Origin: Escherichia phage vB_EcoM_EC001
Direction: 5' to 3' (one strand)
Length of the DNA: 64,000 bases
Sequence record: MN445185.1
The notes beneath the pieces were generated by a model. That model searched no databases, was not told where the DNA came from, and saw nothing but the letters and a program-made list of their open reading frames with translations. A program made the position numbers and the translations under genes. Shown in pieces: positions 1,639 through 43,880 of the stretch (position 1 is its first letter; the number at the start of each line of letters is the position of its first letter).

Positions 1639-2538
1639 ATGCCTATTACATTACACTTTGCACAACGGAAGCCACAGGCGCTCGATAACATCGAAATCTA
1701 TCGCAAGACGCCGGGCAACGCCACCATTGATGTTAATGCACCGGGAACGCCTCTGGCAACCCTTCCGGGTGACGCTACATCGTACGAAGACAACGCTGTG
1801 GAAAACAACACCACTTACCGTTATTGGATAGCTGCGGTTAAAGACGGTGAGCGTGTCTTCAACACCCCTACCGCCCAAGGGTTCTTTTTAGACACCGGGC
1901 CTGGCCCCCAGAAGCTGTTATACGGCGACTGGCACGCTGGATACTTTGGAACAGTAACGCCAGCAGAGTTATTCACTAACACGGAACTGAACAGCCTCGT
2001 GGTGAATATGTTCAGTTCCGCCGTTGGTGCCTGGCATAAGTTCATTTACAAAAACCGTATTCTGTTTATGTCCGATAACTCGATAATATACGCTAGCCCG
2101 CAGTTCATTTATAACCAGGGGCTGATGTACGGCCAGGATGGCAACGGATATGTACCGGGCTGGGCTACTGCACGTAACCAACGCCGCACGGTGACGAAAA
2201 ACGGTTACGAATACGTGGTGCGCTTGCCGTATTTGTTCGACTACAAATTCTGGACGTCTTACGTTGGAAGCGGTAACACTGAGTTGTATCTCGACGGTGA
2301 GTGGTTTAACACCTTCGCGCGCCTGTACAACTACAGTGGGCAGTTTCCGCGCTTTGACGACATTCCGGTCGGTCCAATCGATTCGGTTACTGCCCAACAA
2401 TCTGCATTCTTTGCGGCTATGAATAACACGTCCAGTCAGTGGTACAACCGTCCACCTTACCCTGAGTCGCCGTCGTGGAGTAACTACGGTACCACTACAA
2501 TACGCTCCATTGCGGTACTTGAACTCGTTCTGCCTTAA
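1639..2538 (+). CDS. Hypothetical virion protein, paralog of 647..1636
   Basis: ATG 1639 preceded by GAGGA chosen over the overlapping track start 1603. Same N-terminal pattern (IEIYRKTPG...TSYEDNAVENNTTYRYW). Followed by terminator 2590..2617. Confidence 0.55.
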   Translation: MPITLHFAQRKPQALDNIEIYRKTPGNATIDVNAPGTPLATLPGDATSYEDNAVENNTTYRYWIAAVKDGERVFNTPTAQGFFLDTGPGPQKLLYGDWHAGYFGTVTPAELFTNTELNSLVVNMFSSAVGAWHKFIYKNRILFMSDNSIIYASPQFIYNQGLMYGQDGNGYVPGWATARNQRRTVTKNGYEYVVRLPYLFDYKFWTSYVGSGNTELYLDGEWFNTFARLYNYSGQFPRFDDIPVGPIDSVTAQQSAFFAAMNNTSSQWYNRPPYPESPSWSNYGTTTIRSIAVLELVLP

Positions 2539-29552: not shown

Positions 29553-30815
29553 GTGACTACTGCTTATCAAGTGCGGGCCGACAGCGCTTTTGGCTTCTCT
29601 CGAGACACCCGAACTTGGGGAACCATCGATGTCACGCAGCCCTTAAATACCCTTTGTGCTAACTACCACCTTTTCGAAGTAGGACTAGAAGCACTAGGTG
29701 CTGAATATACCTTCTATAGCCAGTATCACCTGGCTGATTTACAAAACCGTACGGACACGTTGCAAGATTGGTTAAACACCAAGTCAGGAATCGCGATTCC
29801 AACGCTTGGGAAGGGCCTACCGAAGCTCGAATTCGTTGAGGCACACTACCAGTCTATTAATGCAGATGTGCCCGTAGAAACGCACCTGTGCCCTCCTGGT
29901 TACCATTACACTCAGGACTTCAATCCCGATGATGCACACGACGTTGTTGTAGTCTGCGACGATGAGTGGAAAGAGAAATACCGTACCGGGGTACTGTACA
30001 ACATCAACGGTCAATGGGTACCTCACCAATCTGACCCAGTGGGTGTTCGCTTAACCGGCGCTGGTAACATCGTGCGGCGTGCCAATACGCCAGACATTGG
30101 CTGTCTGGTGATGGCAAACATCGGTAAAGTAAAGACCTACCCCATATCCGGTTTAACGATGAACAAACTCGATACTACGCGAGATTACTATTCTTCGTTA
30201 ATGTTGACCTTACCCGATTCCATTACAGGGAAAACCGTTGGGTTCGTCATCGGGGGTATTCTGCATTGGTTGCCACCGCAGGGCTATTTCAGCGACCGTG
30301 CGATTATGCTGAGTCTGCCAAACCTTAGCGTGGCGAAGATTGTATTGGAAACCCGTCGCTATTACGATTGGGACGCCATCGGTGTAGGTGATTTAAGTAC
30401 GCCTACGTCCGTTCAACGTATTCGTAACTCAGAAACGTTAAAAGCGCTGCTGACGCACGAATCCTCGTTTATCTTTACGATAGACAACCCGTATCTCGAA
30501 AAAGAGATTCACGGAATAAGCCACAACGCTATCTGGGGCCGGTTCTATTTAAAAGACCCGACTGACCCAGATGGGAAGAAGACGCTAGGTCCTATCTTTA
30601 ACCGTATTGGTAAATGTGTAGGGTACTGGCCGACCTGGGAAGAAGGGGAGTGGGTCTTTAATACCACATTCTTCGACCGGGAAAACTTTTTGTTGGGGAA
30701 CGCGCGTTGGTATAACCAGAATTTGGTAAACGACGCGCAGGCAATCGTCGGGCCTTTCGGGGCTTGGGGTAAGCCGTTTGTTGAAATGCATCGCTACAAA
30801 GCACGAAAAAAATAA
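29553..30815 (+). CDS. Hypothetical protein
   Basis: 420 aa, GTG start after RBS AGAGGA; divergent from the minus-strand operon; followed by terminator 30821..30864. Confidence 0.55.
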   Translation: MTTAYQVRADSAFGFSRDTRTWGTIDVTQPLNTLCANYHLFEVGLEALGAEYTFYSQYHLADLQNRTDTLQDWLNTKSGIAIPTLGKGLPKLEFVEAHYQSINADVPVETHLCPPGYHYTQDFNPDDAHDVVVVCDDEWKEKYRTGVLYNINGQWVPHQSDPVGVRLTGAGNIVRRANTPDIGCLVMANIGKVKTYPISGLTMNKLDTTRDYYSSLMLTLPDSITGKTVGFVIGGILHWLPPQGYFSDRAIMLSLPNLSVAKIVLETRRYYDWDAIGVGDLSTPTSVQRIRNSETLKALLTHESSFIFTIDNPYLEKEIHGISHNAIWGRFYLKDPTDPDGKKTLGPIFNRIGKCVGYWPTWEEGEWVFNTTFFDRENFLLGNARWYNQNLVNDAQAIVGPFGAWGKPFVEMHRYKARKK

Positions 30816-30820
30816 AAGGT

Positions 30821-30864
30821 AAACCCTACTCCCGTTGGGAGTAGGGTACCTATATCTTTTTTTT
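30821..30864. terminator. Bidirectional intrinsic terminator
   Basis: CCCTACTCCC-GTT-GGGAGTAGGG hairpin followed by TTTTTTTT; A-run upstream. Confidence 0.7.
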
Positions 30865-30877
30865 GCCTGCAGGCCGA

Positions 30878-31087
30878 TTACGCGTTTACGTAATAGATGG
30901 CGTTGCCGAACATTTTGTTGTTGCCGCCACAAGCGGTAACTTTAAATGCTACGCCGCCTTCAGCTTCGGCTTTCTTAGCCAGCGCTTCGGTAACTTCGGT
31001 AACGGTGCTCAGTCCAGAAACCTGAACGGTGCCTGCTTCTACCAGACCAGAAACGTCGCTGCCTGCGGTGATTTCACGAATGCTCAT
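30878..31087 (-). CDS. Small DUF1471-like (YdgH/BhsA/McbA-type) domain protein without signal peptide
   Basis: GTVQVSGLSTVTEVTEALAKKAEAEGGVAFKVTACGGNNKMFGNAIYYV follows the pattern of enterobacterial BhsA-family C-terminal domains; RBS GGAG upstream. Confidence 0.55.
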   Translation of the reverse strand: MSIREITAGSDVSGLVEAGTVQVSGLSTVTEVTEALAKKAEAEGGVAFKVTACGGNNKMFGNAIYYVNA

Positions 31088-31180
31088 TTACTTATCTCCA
31101 TTAACAAATGATAGCAGAAGAACCCTATGTTCAACTACTTGTACTTCGAGGCATATTAACTGCCCCGACTCGTAAATTAG

Positions 31181-31269
31181 TTGACAATAAACCGGCTTTT
31201 GTGCGAAAAAAGTGGCTAACTGTGCACAAGCGATTCGGGTTATCGTTACAGTTAGGAGGTTTATTGTCA
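31181..31269. repeat. Inverted repeat TTGACAATAAACC ... GGTTTATTGTCA in an intergenic region
   Basis: 12-bp arms at 31181-31193 and 31258-31269 separated by about 64 nt, upstream (minus-strand sense) of the DUF1471-like gene. Confidence 0.4.
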
Positions 31270-31295
31270 CAATATACAGCTCACACGTAATTAAA

Positions 31296-32228
31296 TTAGT
31301 GCGGTGTGCTAGTGTCGTTGCCCGGACCATGGCCAGTATGTACGTGAAGAGTAAAGGTGATGCCGCCGATAACCGATTCGGTAACTGTGAAAGTGCCCTT
31401 ACCTTCACCCTTGCCGTTATAGAGGAAATCTTTACCTACTTCCAGGTTACCGGTAAATAGATTCGTTGGGCATGTGGTCTTCCAGTCTTCAGTCGTCCAT
31501 GCCACGTTTTTCGACGCTGTAGAGTTGCGAGTTTCGCACTTCTCGTTAATCGTTTTTGTCTCGAGATTAATAGAACGTTTAGCATAAATGAAAGCGTCCT
31601 CTTTATTGATATTAATCTTCGACCGGCAGGCGTTTTCAAACCCTAAGTCATCCTCCGGAGAATTGAGGTAGAACTTACGCCCTTCGTCATCCACTAACTG
31701 GCAAAACCCGTCACGGGTATTCAGCTGGAGCAAATACGCGTTTTTCTCACCGTTAGTCATACTGGTACGTAGAGTAATGTGACCATCCATCGGGGAGATA
31801 TTCAGTACGTAGGCGTTAGAGAGGTCATCGGCCATCTGGTTTACTGGGTCAGCAGACCAGGCGTATACCCCATCTTCCAGTCGCTTAACGTTACTGTTGT
31901 TTAAATCTTCCCAGAAGTACATATCGGTTTCACCGATACGCCAGATTCTTACGTAGTCTTCTTTTTTCACATCCGGAGGGTTAACCCGGTTGCTGTTGGA
32001 CTTCATCCATTTTGCAGTGATGGCATTACCTTGCTTTACAGTAAGGTTGTCAGCACCACTTAAACTGTTGTGTTGCTTCTCTACAGGTGTCTCTGTTGCA
32101 TCGACAGCTGTAGGATTAATAAAGTTAACTTCGATAGGGATGACTTTAACTCGAGTGGCACCACGAGGTTTATCTTCCGCGACGATACCTATCGAGAAGA
32201 TGTGCAACCCTGACTTAGATTTATTCAT
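31296..32228 (-). CDS. Hypothetical protein with His/Gly-rich C-terminus (possible structural protein)
   Basis: 310 aa; C-terminus ...ITFTLHVHTGHGPGNDTSTPH. Confidence 0.5.
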   Translation of the reverse strand: MNKSKSGLHIFSIGIVAEDKPRGATRVKVIPIEVNFINPTAVDATETPVEKQHNSLSGADNLTVKQGNAITAKWMKSNSNRVNPPDVKKEDYVRIWRIGETDMYFWEDLNNSNVKRLEDGVYAWSADPVNQMADDLSNAYVLNISPMDGHITLRTSMTNGEKNAYLLQLNTRDGFCQLVDDEGRKFYLNSPEDDLGFENACRSKININKEDAFIYAKRSINLETKTINEKCETRNSTASKNVAWTTEDWKTTCPTNLFTGNLEVGKDFLYNGKGEGKGTFTVTESVIGGITFTLHVHTGHGPGNDTSTPH

Positions 32229-32846: not shown

Positions 32847-34085
32847 ATGTATAACGAATACGAATTAGTTTACCAGACACCGAAAGAAGCATTCTTTAAT
32901 GCAGTAATTACTAACTCAATTGTACTGTTGGGAATGCAGTTCAATATTCGGAGTATGGCTTACAGCGACGTAACGTGGCAGGATTGTGCGTGCCTGCCAC
33001 AAAAGCTCTCAACCGTTGTCGAAAAGCGGCTGCTTGACAAAGGGGAAGTAAAGTGCCGTTTAGGCCACCACGTCTCTGACTTAGCGCCGTGGGTTGAATT
33101 AACCATGACATTCGAAGGGGATTCGCGGGTAGCTTACCTATCGGGTAATCAAAACATCGGACGCGCCATTGCTGAGGGTAACACAATGTGGGTGCACTAC
33201 ATTCTTACTCTGCTGATCGATAAACCGGTGTTCGAGTTAACACCAGACATGCCTACACTAAGCGATAGCAACTGGTGGATTGGCGGAGAGCTGAATACAG
33301 GGTTTAATGAGAAATTACAAAACTTTAATTCAGAGCGACTCGATGTTGATGCGGAAGTGTTGGTGCAGCAGTTCCCCGAATTCACTGCGTACCAAATTAC
33401 TACCGTATGGAATAGAGCGGTAAGCAAGCGCAGATTCTACACGAAAAACGCACCGCGTGAAGCAGCCAAACCTGTGGAAATTGACGAAGACACCAAGGAA
33501 GCACTGCGTGATCTAGTCACCATAGCCAATGATAGCAATATGATGTTCTGGACATCTGATGAAAACGCTAACCATTATTTCGGTGAGATGTTAGACGCCG
33601 ATGTTTGGTCAGTAATGCCGATAACAGAGCCAGGAAACCTTAAAGATTACTATAAGGTCGAAAAGGATGAGGTGGTTAATGAGAAAGTCCTCACTCTTCT
33701 TGCTGTTTTCCGCGAAGTTATCCAGTCAGAAATACTGTTAAGCATCTATAAACGTAAGACCCCGGCCAGTGAAAATGACACGGCGTGGGTATTTGACTGT
33801 CGACCGACAAATACAATATCGCCTGCGTTCTGGATACAGGTGACAGGAAAGCTGCAGCGTGTGAACAGTTATGTTGTTTCTCGCCTGCCAGATTCTGAAA
33901 TGCGCTCCGTTGCCGAACCTGCTTATTTGATGTCGGCGAAGGCGGTACAGGATGCGTGGCGTACCAACGAACTGAAACAATGGCATTACGACGCTATCAT
34001 CAAATGGGGTGTTAACAATGGCTGGAAAGAAGTGACTAAGTACGGCCGTCAACTGTTGTTTGTCGCTGATTTGCGTTTACTGTAA
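32847..34085 (+). CDS. Hypothetical protein
   Basis: 412 aa ORF, RBS AAGGAAA; followed by terminator 34093..34126. Confidence 0.55.
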   Translation: MYNEYELVYQTPKEAFFNAVITNSIVLLGMQFNIRSMAYSDVTWQDCACLPQKLSTVVEKRLLDKGEVKCRLGHHVSDLAPWVELTMTFEGDSRVAYLSGNQNIGRAIAEGNTMWVHYILTLLIDKPVFELTPDMPTLSDSNWWIGGELNTGFNEKLQNFNSERLDVDAEVLVQQFPEFTAYQITTVWNRAVSKRRFYTKNAPREAAKPVEIDEDTKEALRDLVTIANDSNMMFWTSDENANHYFGEMLDADVWSVMPITEPGNLKDYYKVEKDEVVNEKVLTLLAVFREVIQSEILLSIYKRKTPASENDTAWVFDCRPTNTISPAFWIQVTGKLQRVNSYVVSRLPDSEMRSVAEPAYLMSAKAVQDAWRTNELKQWHYDAIIKWGVNNGWKEVTKYGRQLLFVADLRLL

Positions 34086-39388: not shown

Positions 39389-39421
39389 GGAACCCTTCGG
39401 GGTTCCATTTCTTCTTTTTTA
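39389..39421 (+). terminator. Intrinsic terminator
   Basis: GGAACCC-TTCG-GGGTTCC hairpin followed by ATTTCTTCTTTTTT. Confidence 0.7.
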
Positions 39422-39473
39422 CGCATGACCTTTTGGATATGAACGACTAATACTTTCTCATTAGAAGGCAAAC

Positions 39474-41984: not shown

Positions 41985-42165
41985 AGGTTGGCGCTTATGG
42001 GCTTGGTGGGGTTTTCAGTTCCTTCAGTTTGTTGTGATGGTACTGTACCTCTCCTTTTGTGCAACCGTAGTGGTTATCGCTGCGGTCGTTTATTTAGCTG
42101 CTGCTCTTAAAGAACGTCTGTTCGACACGCGTTGTGAGTGGCGAGATATAGGAGAACGGACATGA
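41974..42165 (+). CDS. Small hydrophobic membrane protein
   Basis: 63 aa; hydrophobic stretch FQFLQFVVMVLYLSFCATVVVIAAVVYLAAAL. Confidence 0.4.
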   Translation: MHHKGWRLWAWWGFQFLQFVVMVLYLSFCATVVVIAAVVYLAAALKERLFDTRCEWRDIGERT

Positions 42166-42266
42166 TTGAAGGTATCGTATTAACCGGTATTGCACTGTGG
42201 TTGATTCGTGGTGCCTGGGGTTGGATTATCCGCACGAAAGGATGGGCATTCCATGGCAAGACGTAA
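42162..42266 (+). CDS. Small hydrophobic peptide (34 aa)
   Basis: ATG preceded by GGAGAA; MIEGIVLTGIALWLIRGAWGWII...; below the ORF-track length cutoff, my own translation. Confidence 0.35.
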   Translation: MIEGIVLTGIALWLIRGAWGWIIRTKGWAFHGKT

Positions 42267-42444
42267 ACCTGGTCGTTTAAAGTTTTGGGCAGTTGTGGTA
42301 ATGCACACTGTGGTGCTACTCGGTATTTTCATGTCTCGCGCTACGCCTGCCTTTTGGGGCTTAGTTGTTTTGGTGTTCTTAGAAGGGGTTTACTTCGGTA
42401 ATCTGTGGAGCAAGCCCCCCGCGTTTAAGGGACCCGGCTTATGA
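42253..42444 (+). CDS. Small hydrophobic membrane protein
   Basis: Start at internal ATG (MARRKPGRLKFWAVVVMHTVVLLGIFM...); one or two TM-like segments. Confidence 0.4.
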   Translation: MARRKPGRLKFWAVVVMHTVVLLGIFMSRATPAFWGLVVLVFLEGVYFGNLWSKPPAFKGPGL

Positions 42445-42572
42445 CAGTCGTGAATAGTGTCAACGCAGCCATGATTGCAACAGGTGCGTATGATGGTGCC
42501 ACCTGGACAGACCTTGGCATTACGATTATCATCTGTGCAATCGGAGCATTTCTGGCATCATGGTTATTTTAG
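42441..42572 (+). CDS. Small hydrophobic peptide (43 aa)
   Basis: ATGA start/stop overlap with the previous gene; ...LGITIIICAIGAFLASWLF; my own translation. Confidence 0.35.
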   Translation: MTVVNSVNAAMIATGAYDGATWTDLGITIIICAIGAFLASWLF

Positions 42573-43110
42573 TGAAGTGGGTTGGGTGTATCATCTGTAG
42601 CCTGGTACTAGGAGCAGGCGCATACGCCCTAGGCGCAATCCTTGCATTGACGCAAGGTTGGTTTTAACAGGAGGGTAATTACGAAGTGGGAGAAGTATCA
42701 TGTAACAGTGAAACAGTCTCTGATCCCGTGGTCGTGGGTTCAGGGGCGGCCGTGCCAACCCGGCGTATCGTTCTTTCGAGCGCGGGGATGGCTATAGGGT
42801 CTTCAAAGAACCTTCTAGCAGACATCGCGGAAGTCTGCGGGCCGGATGATTTTGCAGTTTCACGTACAGTCGGGGAAGACTGGCGTGGTAATCAGAAGCG
42901 CCATGAGCGAATGTGGCGACGGAAGGTTACCTCAGCATCGCAGCGTTTTCAACGACGTTGTTGATCAAAGACACGGTTCCGATAGAGAACTGGTCTTTAC
43001 CTGCAGCGGTATACACCGCTTAAGTTTACCGGTAAACTTAAGAAAACACAAACGCAATTCTTCGTTACTCGCTTTCATCGCAGGTGAAAGCTCACTTAGG
43101 AATTCAGCTC

Positions 43111-43599: not shown

Positions 43600-43670
43600 T
43601 CCTGTTTTAGCACTCCTTACGATTATGCCTCACTATGAGTGGGGTATTTTTTACGCGAGGAGTGCTATTT

Positions 43671-43880
43671 ATGTTTCACCGTCCTGGGTTTTCAGCTTTA
43701 AACACCGATGTCTGTTGGGCTGAGTACGAACGGGCGAAGGAGTTCTTACCCGTAAATCCAAAACACATCAACGTGGGTACTATCGGGCGTGTTGCGTTTG
43801 ATGATACTCCGCTGAGTACGTGTATTAAAGCAGCGCTTGGTACGCTGCCGGCGTCTATAGTTATTGAGGAATTAAAATGA
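43671..43880 (+). CDS. Hypothetical small protein
   Basis: ATG after RBS GAGGAG; stop overlaps the next start. Confidence 0.4.
   Translation: MFHRPGFSALNTDVCWAEYERAKEFLPVNPKHINVGTIGRVAFDDTPLSTCIKAALGTLPASIVIEELK

What the first reader, a model, noticed from the sequence alone, without database searches (positions are those of the whole stretch)
31181..31269. Inverted repeat with embedded TTGACA in the region upstream of the DUF1471-like gene
TTGACAATAAACC (31181-31193) and its complement GGTTTATTGTCA (31258-31269) form 12-bp inverted arms about 64 nt apart in the 31088-31295 intergenic region. This could be paired operator sites, a long-range RNA hairpin, or overlapping divergent -35 elements.
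Basis: seen in the sequence. Interest (0 to 1): 0.3.

Follow-up and report, generated by a model that had tools for sequence, protein, structure and literature searches.

The report
Stem of a jumbo-phage noncoding RNA
The inverted repeat is real and most likely forms the closing stem of a folded, non-coding RNA segment between a baseplate gene and a small DUF1471 gene of an SPN3US-like giant Salmonella phage; it is not a bacterial promoter or a pair of operator sites.

Summary
The window is an SPN3US-like jumbo phage (Seoulvirus). The 12-bp perfect inverted repeat (31182-31193 / 31258-31269, 64 nt apart) is confirmed, and a second 8-bp repeat is nested inside it. Repeats of this kind are about 12 times more frequent in the window than in shuffles. 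The 12-mer occurs nowhere else in the 240-kb SPN3US genome.

TTGACA has no -10 partner and is not conserved in relatives. These phages encode their own RNA polymerases.

The spacer is non-coding and holds two copies of a phage promoter-like motif, TTTAC-N15-T(A/G)TG. This motif occurs 26 times in SPN3US against 5 expected. The first copy puts a predicted start at G31268, the second base of the upstream arm. From there 86 nt fold with both helices at probability of about 1.

STsAS, pEa_SNUABM_29 and phiEaH2 keep both helices with compensatory and wobble changes around conserved unpaired motifs (CCACUUUUUUCGC, UCGCUUG). Erwinia-phage relatives add a canonical terminator that the SPN3US clade lacks.

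Best reading: an RNA helix of a conserved structured leader or small RNA. Its function is unproven, there are no expression data, and only about four lineages are informative.

The parts
31258..31269 (-). P1 5' strand. This is the upstream arm on the sense strand, 5'-UGACAAUAAACC. The predicted +1 is G31268, so 11 of its 12 nt would be the first bases of the RNA.
   Evidence: Perfect inverted repeat. Pair probabilities 0.97-1.0. Invariant in the SPN3US clade except A31267>G in phage 1252, which gives a G-U pair.
31182..31193 (-). P1 3' strand (sense 5'-GGUUUAUUGUCA), followed by AACUAAUUUACG.
   Evidence: It occupies the place where Erwinia-phage relatives carry a canonical terminator hairpin.
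31248..31255 (-). P2 5' strand (sense CUAACUGU), nested inside P1.
   Evidence: probability 0.89-0.98. Covaries in relatives.
31216..31223 (-). P2 3' strand (sense ACAGUUAG), directly abutting motif M2.
   Evidence: The sense change A31221>G in four relatives gives U-G. STsAS has C-G and pEa29 has G-C at the same pair.
31203..31215 (-). M2, a conserved unpaired motif CCACUUUUUUCGC in the junction between the P2 and P1 3' strands.
   Evidence: Nearly invariant across Seoulvirus, Machinavirus, Wellingtonvirus, phiEaH2 and metagenomic lineages. Unique in the window.
31227..31233 (-). M3, a conserved motif UCGCUUG in the apical region of P2.
   Evidence: Alignments A1, A3 and A4.
31268..31291 (-). 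M1, a phage promoter-like motif ATTAC-N15-TGTG directly after the baseplate stop codon. Predicted +1 = G31268. The upstream element is TTTAC in SPN3US itself, so this window has one mismatch.
   Evidence: Motif class enriched in SPN3US: 26 observed against 5.2 expected, specific to the N15 spacing, and mostly upstream of genes. The SPN3US copy is one of the 26 hits (minus strand, 160475).
31152..31176 (-). Site 2, a promoter-like motif TTTACG-N16-TATG. Predicted +1 = G31152, giving a 64-nt leader for the DUF1471 gene.
   Evidence: TATGC is invariant in all five lineages of alignment A1 and present in every relative. It matches the phiKZ late consensus T-3ATG+1 (PMC7598289).
30878..31087 (-). 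69-aa DUF1471 (YdgH/BhsA/McbA-like) gene. The domain spans residues 16-66, leaving no room for a signal peptide.
31296..32228 (-). 310-aa baseplate assembly / puncture protein gene upstream.
30823..30847 (.). GC-rich hairpin with T and A runs between convergent genes. It is the first canonical terminator downstream of the baseplate gene in this phage.
31181..31186 (+). No function is attributed to it. It is the complement of the end of the P1 3' strand.
   Evidence: No -10 partner. Not conserved in STsAS, pEa29 or phiEaH2.

Best explanation
The two arms pair in RNA made from the minus (gene-sense) strand. They form an 11-12-bp closing helix, P1, around a nested 8-bp helix, P2. Together these fold an 86-nt non-coding domain (31268 to 31183) that displays two conserved unpaired motifs, UCGCUUG and CCACUUUUUUCGC.

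The domain belongs to a conserved non-coding element that lies between the baseplate gene and the DUF1471 gene in SPN3US-like and related Erwinia jumbo phages. It sits directly downstream of a phage-RNA-polymerase-type promoter-like motif whose predicted start (G31268) is the second base of the upstream arm. P1 would therefore sequester the 5' end of that transcript.

In Erwinia-phage relatives the element ends at a canonical terminator, which would make it a discrete small RNA of about 110-180 nt. The SPN3US clade has lost that terminator and lengthened P1. There the domain would be the 5'-terminal, or in read-through baseplate mRNA the intercistronic, structured module of the DUF1471 transcript. 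Its most likely roles are as a stabilising or scaffolding helix.

- **Shown:** the repeat, the nested helix, the non-coding status, the motif enrichment, and conservation and covariation of the helices.
- **Inferred:** that the promoter motif is active, the exact 5' end, the strand, and the function (stability, scaffold or regulation).
For: - **Fold.** The 86-nt RNA has an MFE of -22.1 kcal/mol against -11.3 +/- 2.8 for shuffles (z = -3.9, 0 of 300 shuffles as stable). P1 pair probabilities are 0.97-1.0 and P2 0.89-0.98, and they persist in a 209-nt transcript.
- **Natural variants in close relatives.** Only two substitutions fall in the helices. Both are A>G on the sense strand, which leaves G-U pairs on the sense strand. 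Both variants cost the antisense fold more than the sense fold.
- **Diverged relatives.**
  - P1 is kept from the predicted +1 in STsAS (7 + 5 bp), pEa29 (6 bp) and phiEaH2 (7 bp, GCAACAU/AUGUUGC), with a U-A to C-G change.
  - The 5'-end to post-M2 duplex is better than shuffled controls in each (p = 0.009, 0.010, 0.006; Fisher 6e-5).
  - P2 pair 19-58 runs U-A, U-G, C-G, G-C.
- **Formal pair count on alignment A4.** 90.1% of cells are paired against 84.3 +/- 1.3 in shuffles (0 of 500 reach it). The covariation score is 0.198 against 0.122 (0 of 500). Slid controls give 26-45% paired.
- **Non-coding.** A 1-nt deletion in SPN3US at 31257, and non-triplet indels between lineages, break every long ORF across the spacer.
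- **Promoter context.**
  - TTTAC-N15-TATG occurs 16 times against 1.7 expected, and the TGTG variant 10 times against 2.7. N13, N14 and N16 spacings are not enriched.
  - 16 of the 26 copies lie 5-150 nt upstream of an RBS plus ORF start, against 15% of random positions.
  - The motif combines a 'TAC near -21' and 'TATG at +1', as in phiKZ middle and late promoters (PMC8244752, PMC7598289).
- **Conserved synteny.** The order baseplate, 200-400-nt spacer, DUF1471 is kept in at least 9 lineages.
Against: - There are no expression data, so the start site, the strand and even transcription of a discrete RNA are predictions.
- In this window the M1 upstream element is ATTAC, not TTTAC, and one-mismatch variants of that element are not enriched genome-wide (13 observed, 12 expected).
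- Only about four independent lineages inform P1 and P2. They share ancestry, and the structure was derived from these same sequences, so the shuffle statistics are optimistic.
- P1 is not found in the Machinavirus, Wellingtonvirus or L008-type lineages.
- In pEa29 a local hairpin (CGUAAG/CUUACG) competes with P1.
- The antisense strand folds even more stably (-28.8 against -22.1 kcal/mol).
- The fold z-score is biased, because the region was picked for its repeat.
- 5'-end pairing is not a general feature of predicted starts of this promoter class (0.51 against 0.51). The stabiliser role is therefore an analogy, not a pattern.
Confidence: 0.55

Rival explanations
1. The repeat acts in RNA but as a 3'-end or processing signal. 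Either it is a substitute terminator for the phage RNA polymerase, replacing the canonical terminator of relatives, or it is an intercistronic double-stranded target (RNase III-like) in read-through baseplate mRNA that leaves a protective hairpin.
For: - The 3' arm lies exactly where relatives have a GC-rich terminator hairpin, and it is followed by the same ...UUUAC(G) sequence.
- The SPN3US clade and STsAS lack a terminator with a U-tract in this spacer.
- In read-through RNA the helix extends by 4 + 4 more pairs, to about 20 bp with small bulges.
Against: - The stem closes a 64-nt insert, is AU-rich (4 G-C pairs of 12) and is followed only by AACUAAUUU. The terminator scan does not call it.
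- No termination or cleavage signals are known for these polymerases.
- P1 coexists with a canonical terminator in pEa29 and phiEaH2, so it is not merely a replacement.
Confidence: 0.15
2. The repeat is a chance or neutral repeat specific to the SPN3US lineage. It sits inside a conserved spacer whose real functional parts are the promoter-like motifs and the M2/M3 sequence motifs.
For: - 22% of shuffled windows contain at least one such repeat.
- All SPN3US-clade genomes are 97-99.5% identical here, so invariance of the arms says little.
- P1 is absent from four related lineages.
Against: - The repeat falls in non-coding sequence, which makes up only about 7% of the window.
- It is nested with a second perfect helix.
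- It begins at a predicted start site.
- Its pairing is retained with compensatory changes in three diverged lineages.
Confidence: 0.17
3. The repeat works at the DNA level. Either two inverted binding sites bind a phage regulator that loops 76 bp of DNA over the M1 start region, or the arms are divergent host-type -35 elements.
For: - The upstream arm overlaps the predicted start of M1.
- TTGACA is a perfect sigma-70 -35 hexamer.
- The phage encodes HTH proteins.
Against: - No other copy exists in 240 kb.
- No -10 partner exists on either strand.
- Arm sequence and spacing vary between relatives while complementarity is kept.
- Natural variants create G-U pairs, which are DNA mismatches.
- phiKZ-type phages transcribe independently of host RNA polymerase (PMC7598289).
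- There is no similarity to E. coli DNA.
Confidence: 0.06
4. The repeat consists of the terminal inverted repeats of a miniature mobile element, or the ends of an invertible segment.
For: Two 12-bp inverted ends flank a short 64-bp segment.
Against: - It is single-copy in the genome.
- There is no target-site duplication.
- The interior (M2, M3) and the upstream arm are homologous across genera.
- The orientation is identical in all relatives.
Confidence: 0.02

Closest known systems
5'-terminal stem-loop stabilisers of bacterial and phage mRNAs (for example the ompA 5' UTR hairpin). Recalled from general knowledge, not tested here.
   Same: The helix begins at, or within one base of, the predicted 5' end, leaving no single-stranded 5' tail. 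It lies in a long leader upstream of an ordinary RBS.
   Different: The 5' end is only predicted. The helix closes a 64-nt two-motif domain rather than a simple hairpin. Other predicted starts of the same promoter class do not show 5' pairing.
Small non-coding RNAs of virulent phages (predicted for phiKZ, PA5oct and others; PMC8244752).
   Same: In the Erwinia-phage relatives the layout is promoter-like motif, structured conserved non-coding body of 110-180 nt, then intrinsic terminator. There are unpaired conserved motifs that could act as seeds or binding sites.
   Different: No terminator exists in this window's clade. No target was identified: the best phage hit is only the locus's own antisense. 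No expression evidence exists. The element is not in Rfam.
phiKZ middle and late promoters for the non-virion RNA polymerase (TACT near -22; T-3ATG+1) (PMC8244752, PMC7598289).
   Same: There is a TAC at about -21/-19 and T(A/G)TG ending at the start, at fixed spacing. The motif is enriched upstream of genes in SPN3US.
   Different: The two elements occur together in one motif. The copy at the repeat has TGTG, and in this window ATTAC. None has been mapped experimentally in Seoulvirus.
Riboswitch- or attenuator-type leaders (conserved folded domain with closing helix P1, followed by a terminator, upstream of a gene).
   Same: In pEa29 and phiEaH2, covarying helices surround conserved unpaired nucleotides, the P1 3' strand lies next to a terminator hairpin, and the element is always upstream of the same gene family.
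   Different: A second conserved promoter-like motif lies between the terminator and the gene. The terminator is absent here. No ligand or alternative antiterminator pairing was identified. There is no Rfam match.
Intercistronic RNase III hairpins of T7-like phages. Recalled from general knowledge.
   Same: It is a long irregular helix in a spacer between two co-oriented genes.
   Different: Contiguous duplex is only 12 bp (about 20 bp with bulges). No cleavage data exist.

Membership tests
   TTGACA at 31181-31186 on the + strand.
   The scan of 30500-31700 found 0 promoter-like sites on either strand. The hexamers at spacers 16-18 are GCGAAA, CGAAAA and GAAAAA.
   TTGACA is absent at the homologous place in STsAS, pEa29 and phiEaH2. 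The phage encodes multisubunit RNA polymerase subunits, and phiKZ-type phages are independent of host RNA polymerase (PMC7598289).
phiKZ-type non-virion RNA polymerase promoter | T-3ATG+1 at the start site | tested here: inconclusive
   Site 2 has TATG (31155-31152). M1 has TGTG (31271-31268). TGTG at the same spacing is also enriched in SPN3US, 10 observed against 2.7 expected.
phiKZ-type non-virion RNA polymerase promoter | Upstream TAC element near -21 at fixed spacing | tested here: inconclusive
   Site 2 has TTTACG but at N16. M1 has N15 but ATTAC in this window (TTTAC in SPN3US). One-mismatch variants are not enriched.
phiKZ-type non-virion RNA polymerase promoter | Experimentally mapped primary 5' end or in-vitro transcription | not testable with these tools
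   No Seoulvirus start-site map was found in the paper library.
Intrinsic (rho-independent) terminator | Compact GC-rich stem, 3-8-nt loop, U-tract directly after the stem | tested here: not met
   The loop is 64 nt, the stem has 4 G-C pairs of 12, and the tail is AACUAAUUU. The scan does not call it, although it does call 30823-30847.
Known RNA families (Rfam 15) | Covariance-model match | tested here: not met
   Only chance-level hits with E > 6 in the window region. No hits with E <= 1 in nine related loci.
Structured non-coding RNA (small RNA or leader) | No conserved reading frame | tested here: met
   A 1-nt indel between the window and SPN3US at 31257, and non-triplet indels between lineages.
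Structured non-coding RNA (small RNA or leader) | Helices supported by compensatory changes | tested here: met
   5 of 19 pairs change on both sides. 90% of cells are paired against 84% in shuffles and 26-45% in slid controls. Caveat: only about four lineages, and the structure was derived from them.
Structured non-coding RNA (small RNA or leader) | Own promoter and terminator defining a discrete transcript | tested here: inconclusive
   A promoter-like motif is present. A canonical terminator is present in pEa29, phiEaH2, Kwan, Caitlin and Machina but absent in this window and in STsAS.
Structured non-coding RNA (small RNA or leader) | Detected transcript | not testable with these tools
   No RNA data are available.
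Palindromic operator pair | Conserved half-site sequence, fixed spacing, and usually further copies in the regulon | tested here: not met
   Only two copies in 240 kb. Half-site sequence and spacing vary.
Miniature inverted-repeat element | Multiple copies, target-site duplication, and presence/absence polymorphism | tested here: not met
   Single copy. The interior is homologous in all relatives.

The most novel reading that the evidence does not exclude
The baseplate-DUF1471 spacer of Seoulvirus, phiEaH2-like, Machinavirus and Wellingtonvirus jumbo phages encodes a previously undescribed structured RNA. It would be transcribed by the phage's own non-virion RNA polymerase late in infection. 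It would have conserved unpaired motifs (CCACUUUUUUCGC, UCGCUUG) presented by covarying helices. It would act either as a trans-acting small RNA or as a ligand- or protein-sensing leader for the DUF1471 gene. The SPN3US inverted repeat would be its closing helix.
Probability: 0.3. Interest if true: 0.55.

Novelty: new member of a known kind. Interest (0 to 1): 0.35.

Why it matters
Regulatory RNA is almost unexplored in nucleus-forming jumbo phages. For phiKZ only one small RNA was predicted, and it was not confirmed (PMC8244752). No promoters have been mapped for Seoulvirus.

If the element is a real RNA, it would be a conserved, experimentally tractable non-coding RNA made by a phage multisubunit polymerase. 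It would also be a handle on expression of a host-like DUF1471 stress-protein homologue that sits among baseplate genes.

The by-product of this work may be more useful than the repeat itself. Two genome-wide promoter-like motifs of SPN3US were found, TTTAC-N15-T(A/G)TG and TTTCAGATAGATATTATCTA. If they are confirmed, they would let transcription units be annotated across this phage group.

Tried and rejected
- **Sigma-70 promoter.** No -10 partner.
- **Host-derived upstream region.** No blastn match in 5,426 E. coli genomes.
- **Small ORF in the spacer.** Two ORFs span it in the window: 106 aa on the sense strand and 60 aa on the antisense strand. Both are broken by a 1-nt deletion in SPN3US and by non-triplet indels in other lineages.
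- **Repeated operator.** The 12-mer is unique in 240 kb. The motifs GTATAWTGTGAC and CCACTTTTTTCGC are also locus-specific in the window.
- **Rfam.** Nothing found.
- **Antisense promoter of the phage class.** The + strand has only TTGAC-N14-TGTG, with the wrong spacing and a mismatch (read). The N14 spacing is not enriched.
- **A general '5' hairpin' rule for this promoter class.** Not found.
- **Trans target of the unpaired junction in the phage genome.** The only strong hit is the locus's own antisense. A weaker hit upstream of the helicase gene was not evaluated further.
- **Widening the comparison.**
  - DNA-pattern scans of IMG/VR with the M2 14-mer, the M2 17-mer and the 5'-arm pattern returned mostly chance hits, and only Kwan-like or SPN3US copies in the right context.
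  - The single metagenome scan returned two more SPN3US-clade contigs with identical arms.
- **Strand assignment by folding energy.** This failed, because the antisense strand is more stable.

Full report
**What the window is.** The region 30700-31500 is 94.6-98.4% identical across its full length to 22 SPN3US-like jumbo phages of Salmonella, E. coli and Proteus (genus Seoulvirus). Eleven more records match only 64-82% of it. In SPN3US the finding lies between gp093 (baseplate assembly protein) and gp094 (DUF1471 domain protein), both on the minus strand of the window. The 69-aa protein matches Pfam PF07338 (YdgH/BhsA/McbA-like) at E = 3.3e-11. The genome encodes several RNA-polymerase beta-like subunits. 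These are typical of phiKZ-related phages, which transcribe with a virion and a non-virion multisubunit polymerase, independently of the host enzyme (PMC7598289).

**The observation.** The arms are TGACAATAAACC at 31182-31193 and GGTTTATTGTCA at 31258-31269. They are perfect 12-mers, 64 nt apart.

- A second perfect 8-bp repeat, CTAACTGT/ACAGTTAG (31216-31223 / 31248-31255), is nested inside.
- The window holds 3 perfect inverted repeats of at least 12 bp with loops of at most 100 nt, against 0.25 in dinucleotide shuffles. 22% of shuffles have at least one.
- The 12-mer has no other copy in the window with fewer than one mismatch, and no other exact copy in the complete 240,413-bp SPN3US genome.

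**Host-type promoter or operator?**

- No sigma-70-like site is found on either strand of 30500-31700.
- TTGACA is followed at the proper distance by CGAAAA-type hexamers.
- It is not kept in STsAS, pEa_SNUABM_29 or phiEaH2.
- The spacer plus gene has no blastn match in E. coli genomes.
- A single-copy pair of sites whose sequence and spacing drift between relatives does not look like an operator.

**Coding?** Two ORFs run through the spacer in the window: 106 aa on the sense strand and 60 aa on the antisense strand. SPN3US, JN03 and two metagenomic contigs carry a 1-nt deletion at 31257. More distant relatives differ by many non-triplet indels. The spacer is therefore non-coding.

**A phage promoter motif.** While reading the window's intergenic regions I saw TTTAC(G) about 20 nt upstream of TATG.

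- In the window, TTTAC-N14-18-TATG occurs 10 times against 2.6 expected, mostly upstream of genes.
- In the whole SPN3US genome, TTTAC-N15-TATG occurs 16 times against 1.7 +/- 1.2 expected, and TTTAC-N15-TGTG 10 times against 2.7.
- Spacings of 13, 14 and 16 are not enriched.
- 16 of the 26 copies lie 5-150 nt upstream of an RBS plus ORF start, against 15% of random positions.
- TTTACG is preferred (18 of 26), and one-mismatch variants of TTTAC are not enriched.
- The motif combines a TAC near -21, like the phiKZ middle promoter 'TACT centred at -22' (PMC8244752), with the phiKZ late consensus T-3ATG+1 (PMC7598289).

The spacer holds two copies.

- **Site 2** (31176 to 31152, TTTACG-N16-TATG) gives the DUF1471 gene a 64-nt leader. 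Its TATGC is invariant in every relative.
- **M1** starts right after the baseplate stop codon. It reads ATTAC-N15-TGTG in the window and TTTAC-N15-TGTG in SPN3US, where it is one of the 26 genome hits. It is a canonical TTTAC-N15-TATG in Caitlin and L009, and TTAC-N15-TATG in Machina.
- Its predicted +1 is G31268, so the RNA would begin 5'-GACAAUAAACC. That is the upstream arm of the repeat minus its first base.

**The fold.** From G31268 to C31183 (86 nt) the sense RNA folds at -22.1 kcal/mol. Shuffles give -11.3 +/- 2.8 (z = -3.9, 0 of 300 as stable).

- P1 (11 bp) has pair probabilities of 0.97-1.0 and P2 (8 bp) of 0.89-0.98.
- The same helices persist when the transcript is extended into the DUF1471 gene.
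- In read-through RNA from the baseplate gene the outer helix gains 4 + 4 further pairs.
- The z-score is biased by how the region was chosen. The antisense strand folds even better (-28.8 kcal/mol), so energy does not assign the strand.

**Comparative evidence.** Within the SPN3US clade the spacer has 14 variable columns.

- Only two fall in the helices, and both are A>G on the sense strand: 31267 in phage 1252, and 31221 in Proteus phage 7, MET_P1, 1252 and Lh1B.
- Both turn A-U into G-U on the sense strand. Both variants cost the antisense fold more than the sense fold.

Beyond the clade, the synteny baseplate, 200-400-nt spacer, DUF1471 is kept in STsAS/SPAsTU, pEa_SNUABM_29, phiEaH2 and a relative, five metagenomic contigs (L008 type), Caitlin/L009, Machina/Huxley, Kwan-like phages and CR5/EarlPhillipIV. 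All but the CR5 group share the motifs UCGCUUG (M3) and GCCACUUUUUUCGC (M2).

Folding each predicted transcript from its own +1, without constraints, gives the same architecture in four lineages. That architecture is P1 from +1, a nested P2 whose 3' strand abuts M2, and M2 left unpaired in the junction. The four lineages are SPN3US, STsAS, pEa29 and phiEaH2.

| Lineage | P1 | P2 |
|---|---|---|
| Window | GACAAUAAACC / GGUUUAUUGUC | CUAACUGU / ACAGUUAG |
| Proteus phage 7 type | as window | as window, with one U-G |
| STsAS | GACAACA / UGUUGUU plus CCCUU / AAGGG | UUAACC / GGUUAG |
| pEa29 | GACAAC / GUUGUC | CUAAUGU / GCAUUGG |
| phiEaH2 | GCAACAU / AUGUUGC | UAAUGC / GCGUUG |

- The duplex between the first 12 nt and the segment after M2 beats shuffled 5' ends in STsAS, pEa29 and phiEaH2 (p = 0.009, 0.010, 0.006; Fisher 6e-5). 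It does not in Caitlin, L009, Machina or Kwan.
- On MAFFT alignment A4 (10 sequences), 90.1% of cells pair, against 84.3 +/- 1.3 in column shuffles (0 of 500).
- The covariation score is 0.198 against 0.122 (0 of 500).
- 5 of 19 pairs change on both sides (31 of 500 shuffles reach this).
- Slid controls pair 26-45%.
- Pair 6-92 is U-A in the SPN3US clade and C-G in the other three lineages.
- Pair 19-58 runs U-A, U-G, C-G, G-C.

These numbers are encouraging but rest on about four related lineages, and the structure was derived from them.

**What differs in this clade.** In pEa29, phiEaH2, Kwan, Caitlin/L009 and Machina the conserved block is followed by a canonical GC-rich terminator with a U-tract, and then by site 2. 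From M1 to that terminator there would be a discrete RNA of about 110-180 nt. SPN3US-type phages and STsAS have no such terminator. The 3' arm of the repeat sits at that place and is followed by the same ...UUUACG. In this clade P1 has grown from 6-7 to 11-12 bp, and an internal hairpin present in the other lineages (GUCGA/UCGAC and covarying equivalents) has been lost.

**Interpretation.** The best-supported reading is an RNA helix. The repeat is the closing stem of a conserved structured non-coding domain that begins at, or lies just downstream of, a phage-polymerase promoter-like motif.

- **Shown:** the repeat, the nested helix, the absence of coding, motif enrichment, conservation of unpaired motifs, and compensatory changes.
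- **Inferred:** activity of M1 (weakened by the ATTAC variant in this window), the 5' end, the strand, and the function.

By analogy with 5'-terminal stem-loops (general knowledge), sequestering the 5' end would stabilise the transcript. The conserved unpaired M2 and M3 suggest a binding or seed function.

A terminator-substitute or RNase III-type processing role is a serious variant (0.15). A neutral, lineage-specific repeat cannot be excluded (0.17). DNA-level operator or -35 readings are unlikely (0.06), and a mobile element is excluded.

**Known families.** No Rfam family matches the window region or nine related loci. The paper library holds no start-site or RNA map for Seoulvirus. For phiKZ one small RNA was predicted and not confirmed (PMC8244752).

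**Verdict.** This is a real, probably functional RNA helix in an ordinary-looking spacer. It is of modest interest in itself and somewhat more as the entry point to a conserved candidate non-coding RNA and to promoter motifs of SPN3US-like jumbo phages.

Noticed in passing
window + strand 32734, 36259, 38079, 45530, 54622, 63160 (17-nt matches); SPN3US genome, 21 copies on the + strand: A second recurrent intergenic motif, TTTCAGAYAGATRTTATCTA(nn)GTGAG, distinct from the TTTAC-N15-TRTG class. It is probably the early (virion RNA polymerase) promoter of Seoulvirus: an AT-rich block near -10, as described for phiKZ-type phages.
   Followed up: partly
window, for example 39418-39445 (+), 43650-43677 (+), 59144-59171 (+), 15095-15068 (-), 31176-31148 (-); genome-wide in SPN3US: The promoter-like motif TTTAC(G)-N15-T(A/G)TG occurs 26 times in SPN3US against 5.2 expected. 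It is strictly spacing-specific and mostly upstream of genes, and it often follows directly on the T-run of a terminator.
   Followed up: yes
window 30878-31087 and the homologous genes in L002-L026: The DUF1471 gene exists as two alleles of about 43% amino-acid identity. One is the SPN3US/pEa29/Caitlin type and the other the STsAS/phiEaH2/L008/L009/Machina type. Their distribution does not follow the baseplate or spacer phylogeny: Caitlin and L009 share the spacer but differ in allele. The protein is a bare domain with no room for a signal peptide, unlike what I recall for its bacterial homologues (not tested here).
   Followed up: partly
window 1982-1993 / 2009-2020: Another perfect 12-bp inverted repeat (CGGAACTGAACA, 15-nt loop) lies inside the ORF 1603-2538.
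   Followed up: no
window 41985-42845: An 861-nt stretch has no ORF of at least 90 aa in the gene list used. In SPN3US this stretch carries several very small annotated genes (gp076-gp079).
   Followed up: no
L024 (Kwan) 1836-1994; L147, L161: Kwan-like phages have an extra 52-aa annotated ORF between the baseplate gene and the M1 motif, which lengthens the spacer to about 400 nt.
   Followed up: no
SPN3US 33361-33410 (upstream of helicase gp230): This is the best non-self complementarity in the phage genome to the unpaired junction AGCCACUUUUUUCGCACAAAAGCC (duplex -23.5 kcal/mol). Its significance is unclear.
   Followed up: no
L025 (CR5) and L026 (EarlPhillipIV), spacer after the baseplate gene: The Derbicusvirus spacers lack M2 and M3. 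They do have a TATG promoter-like motif after the stop codon. They also have a long-range stem (CCCCCUA.GAC/GUC.UAGGGGG, about 46-nt insert) followed by AAUUCUAAUUUG, which is reminiscent of the SPN3US arrangement.
   Followed up: no
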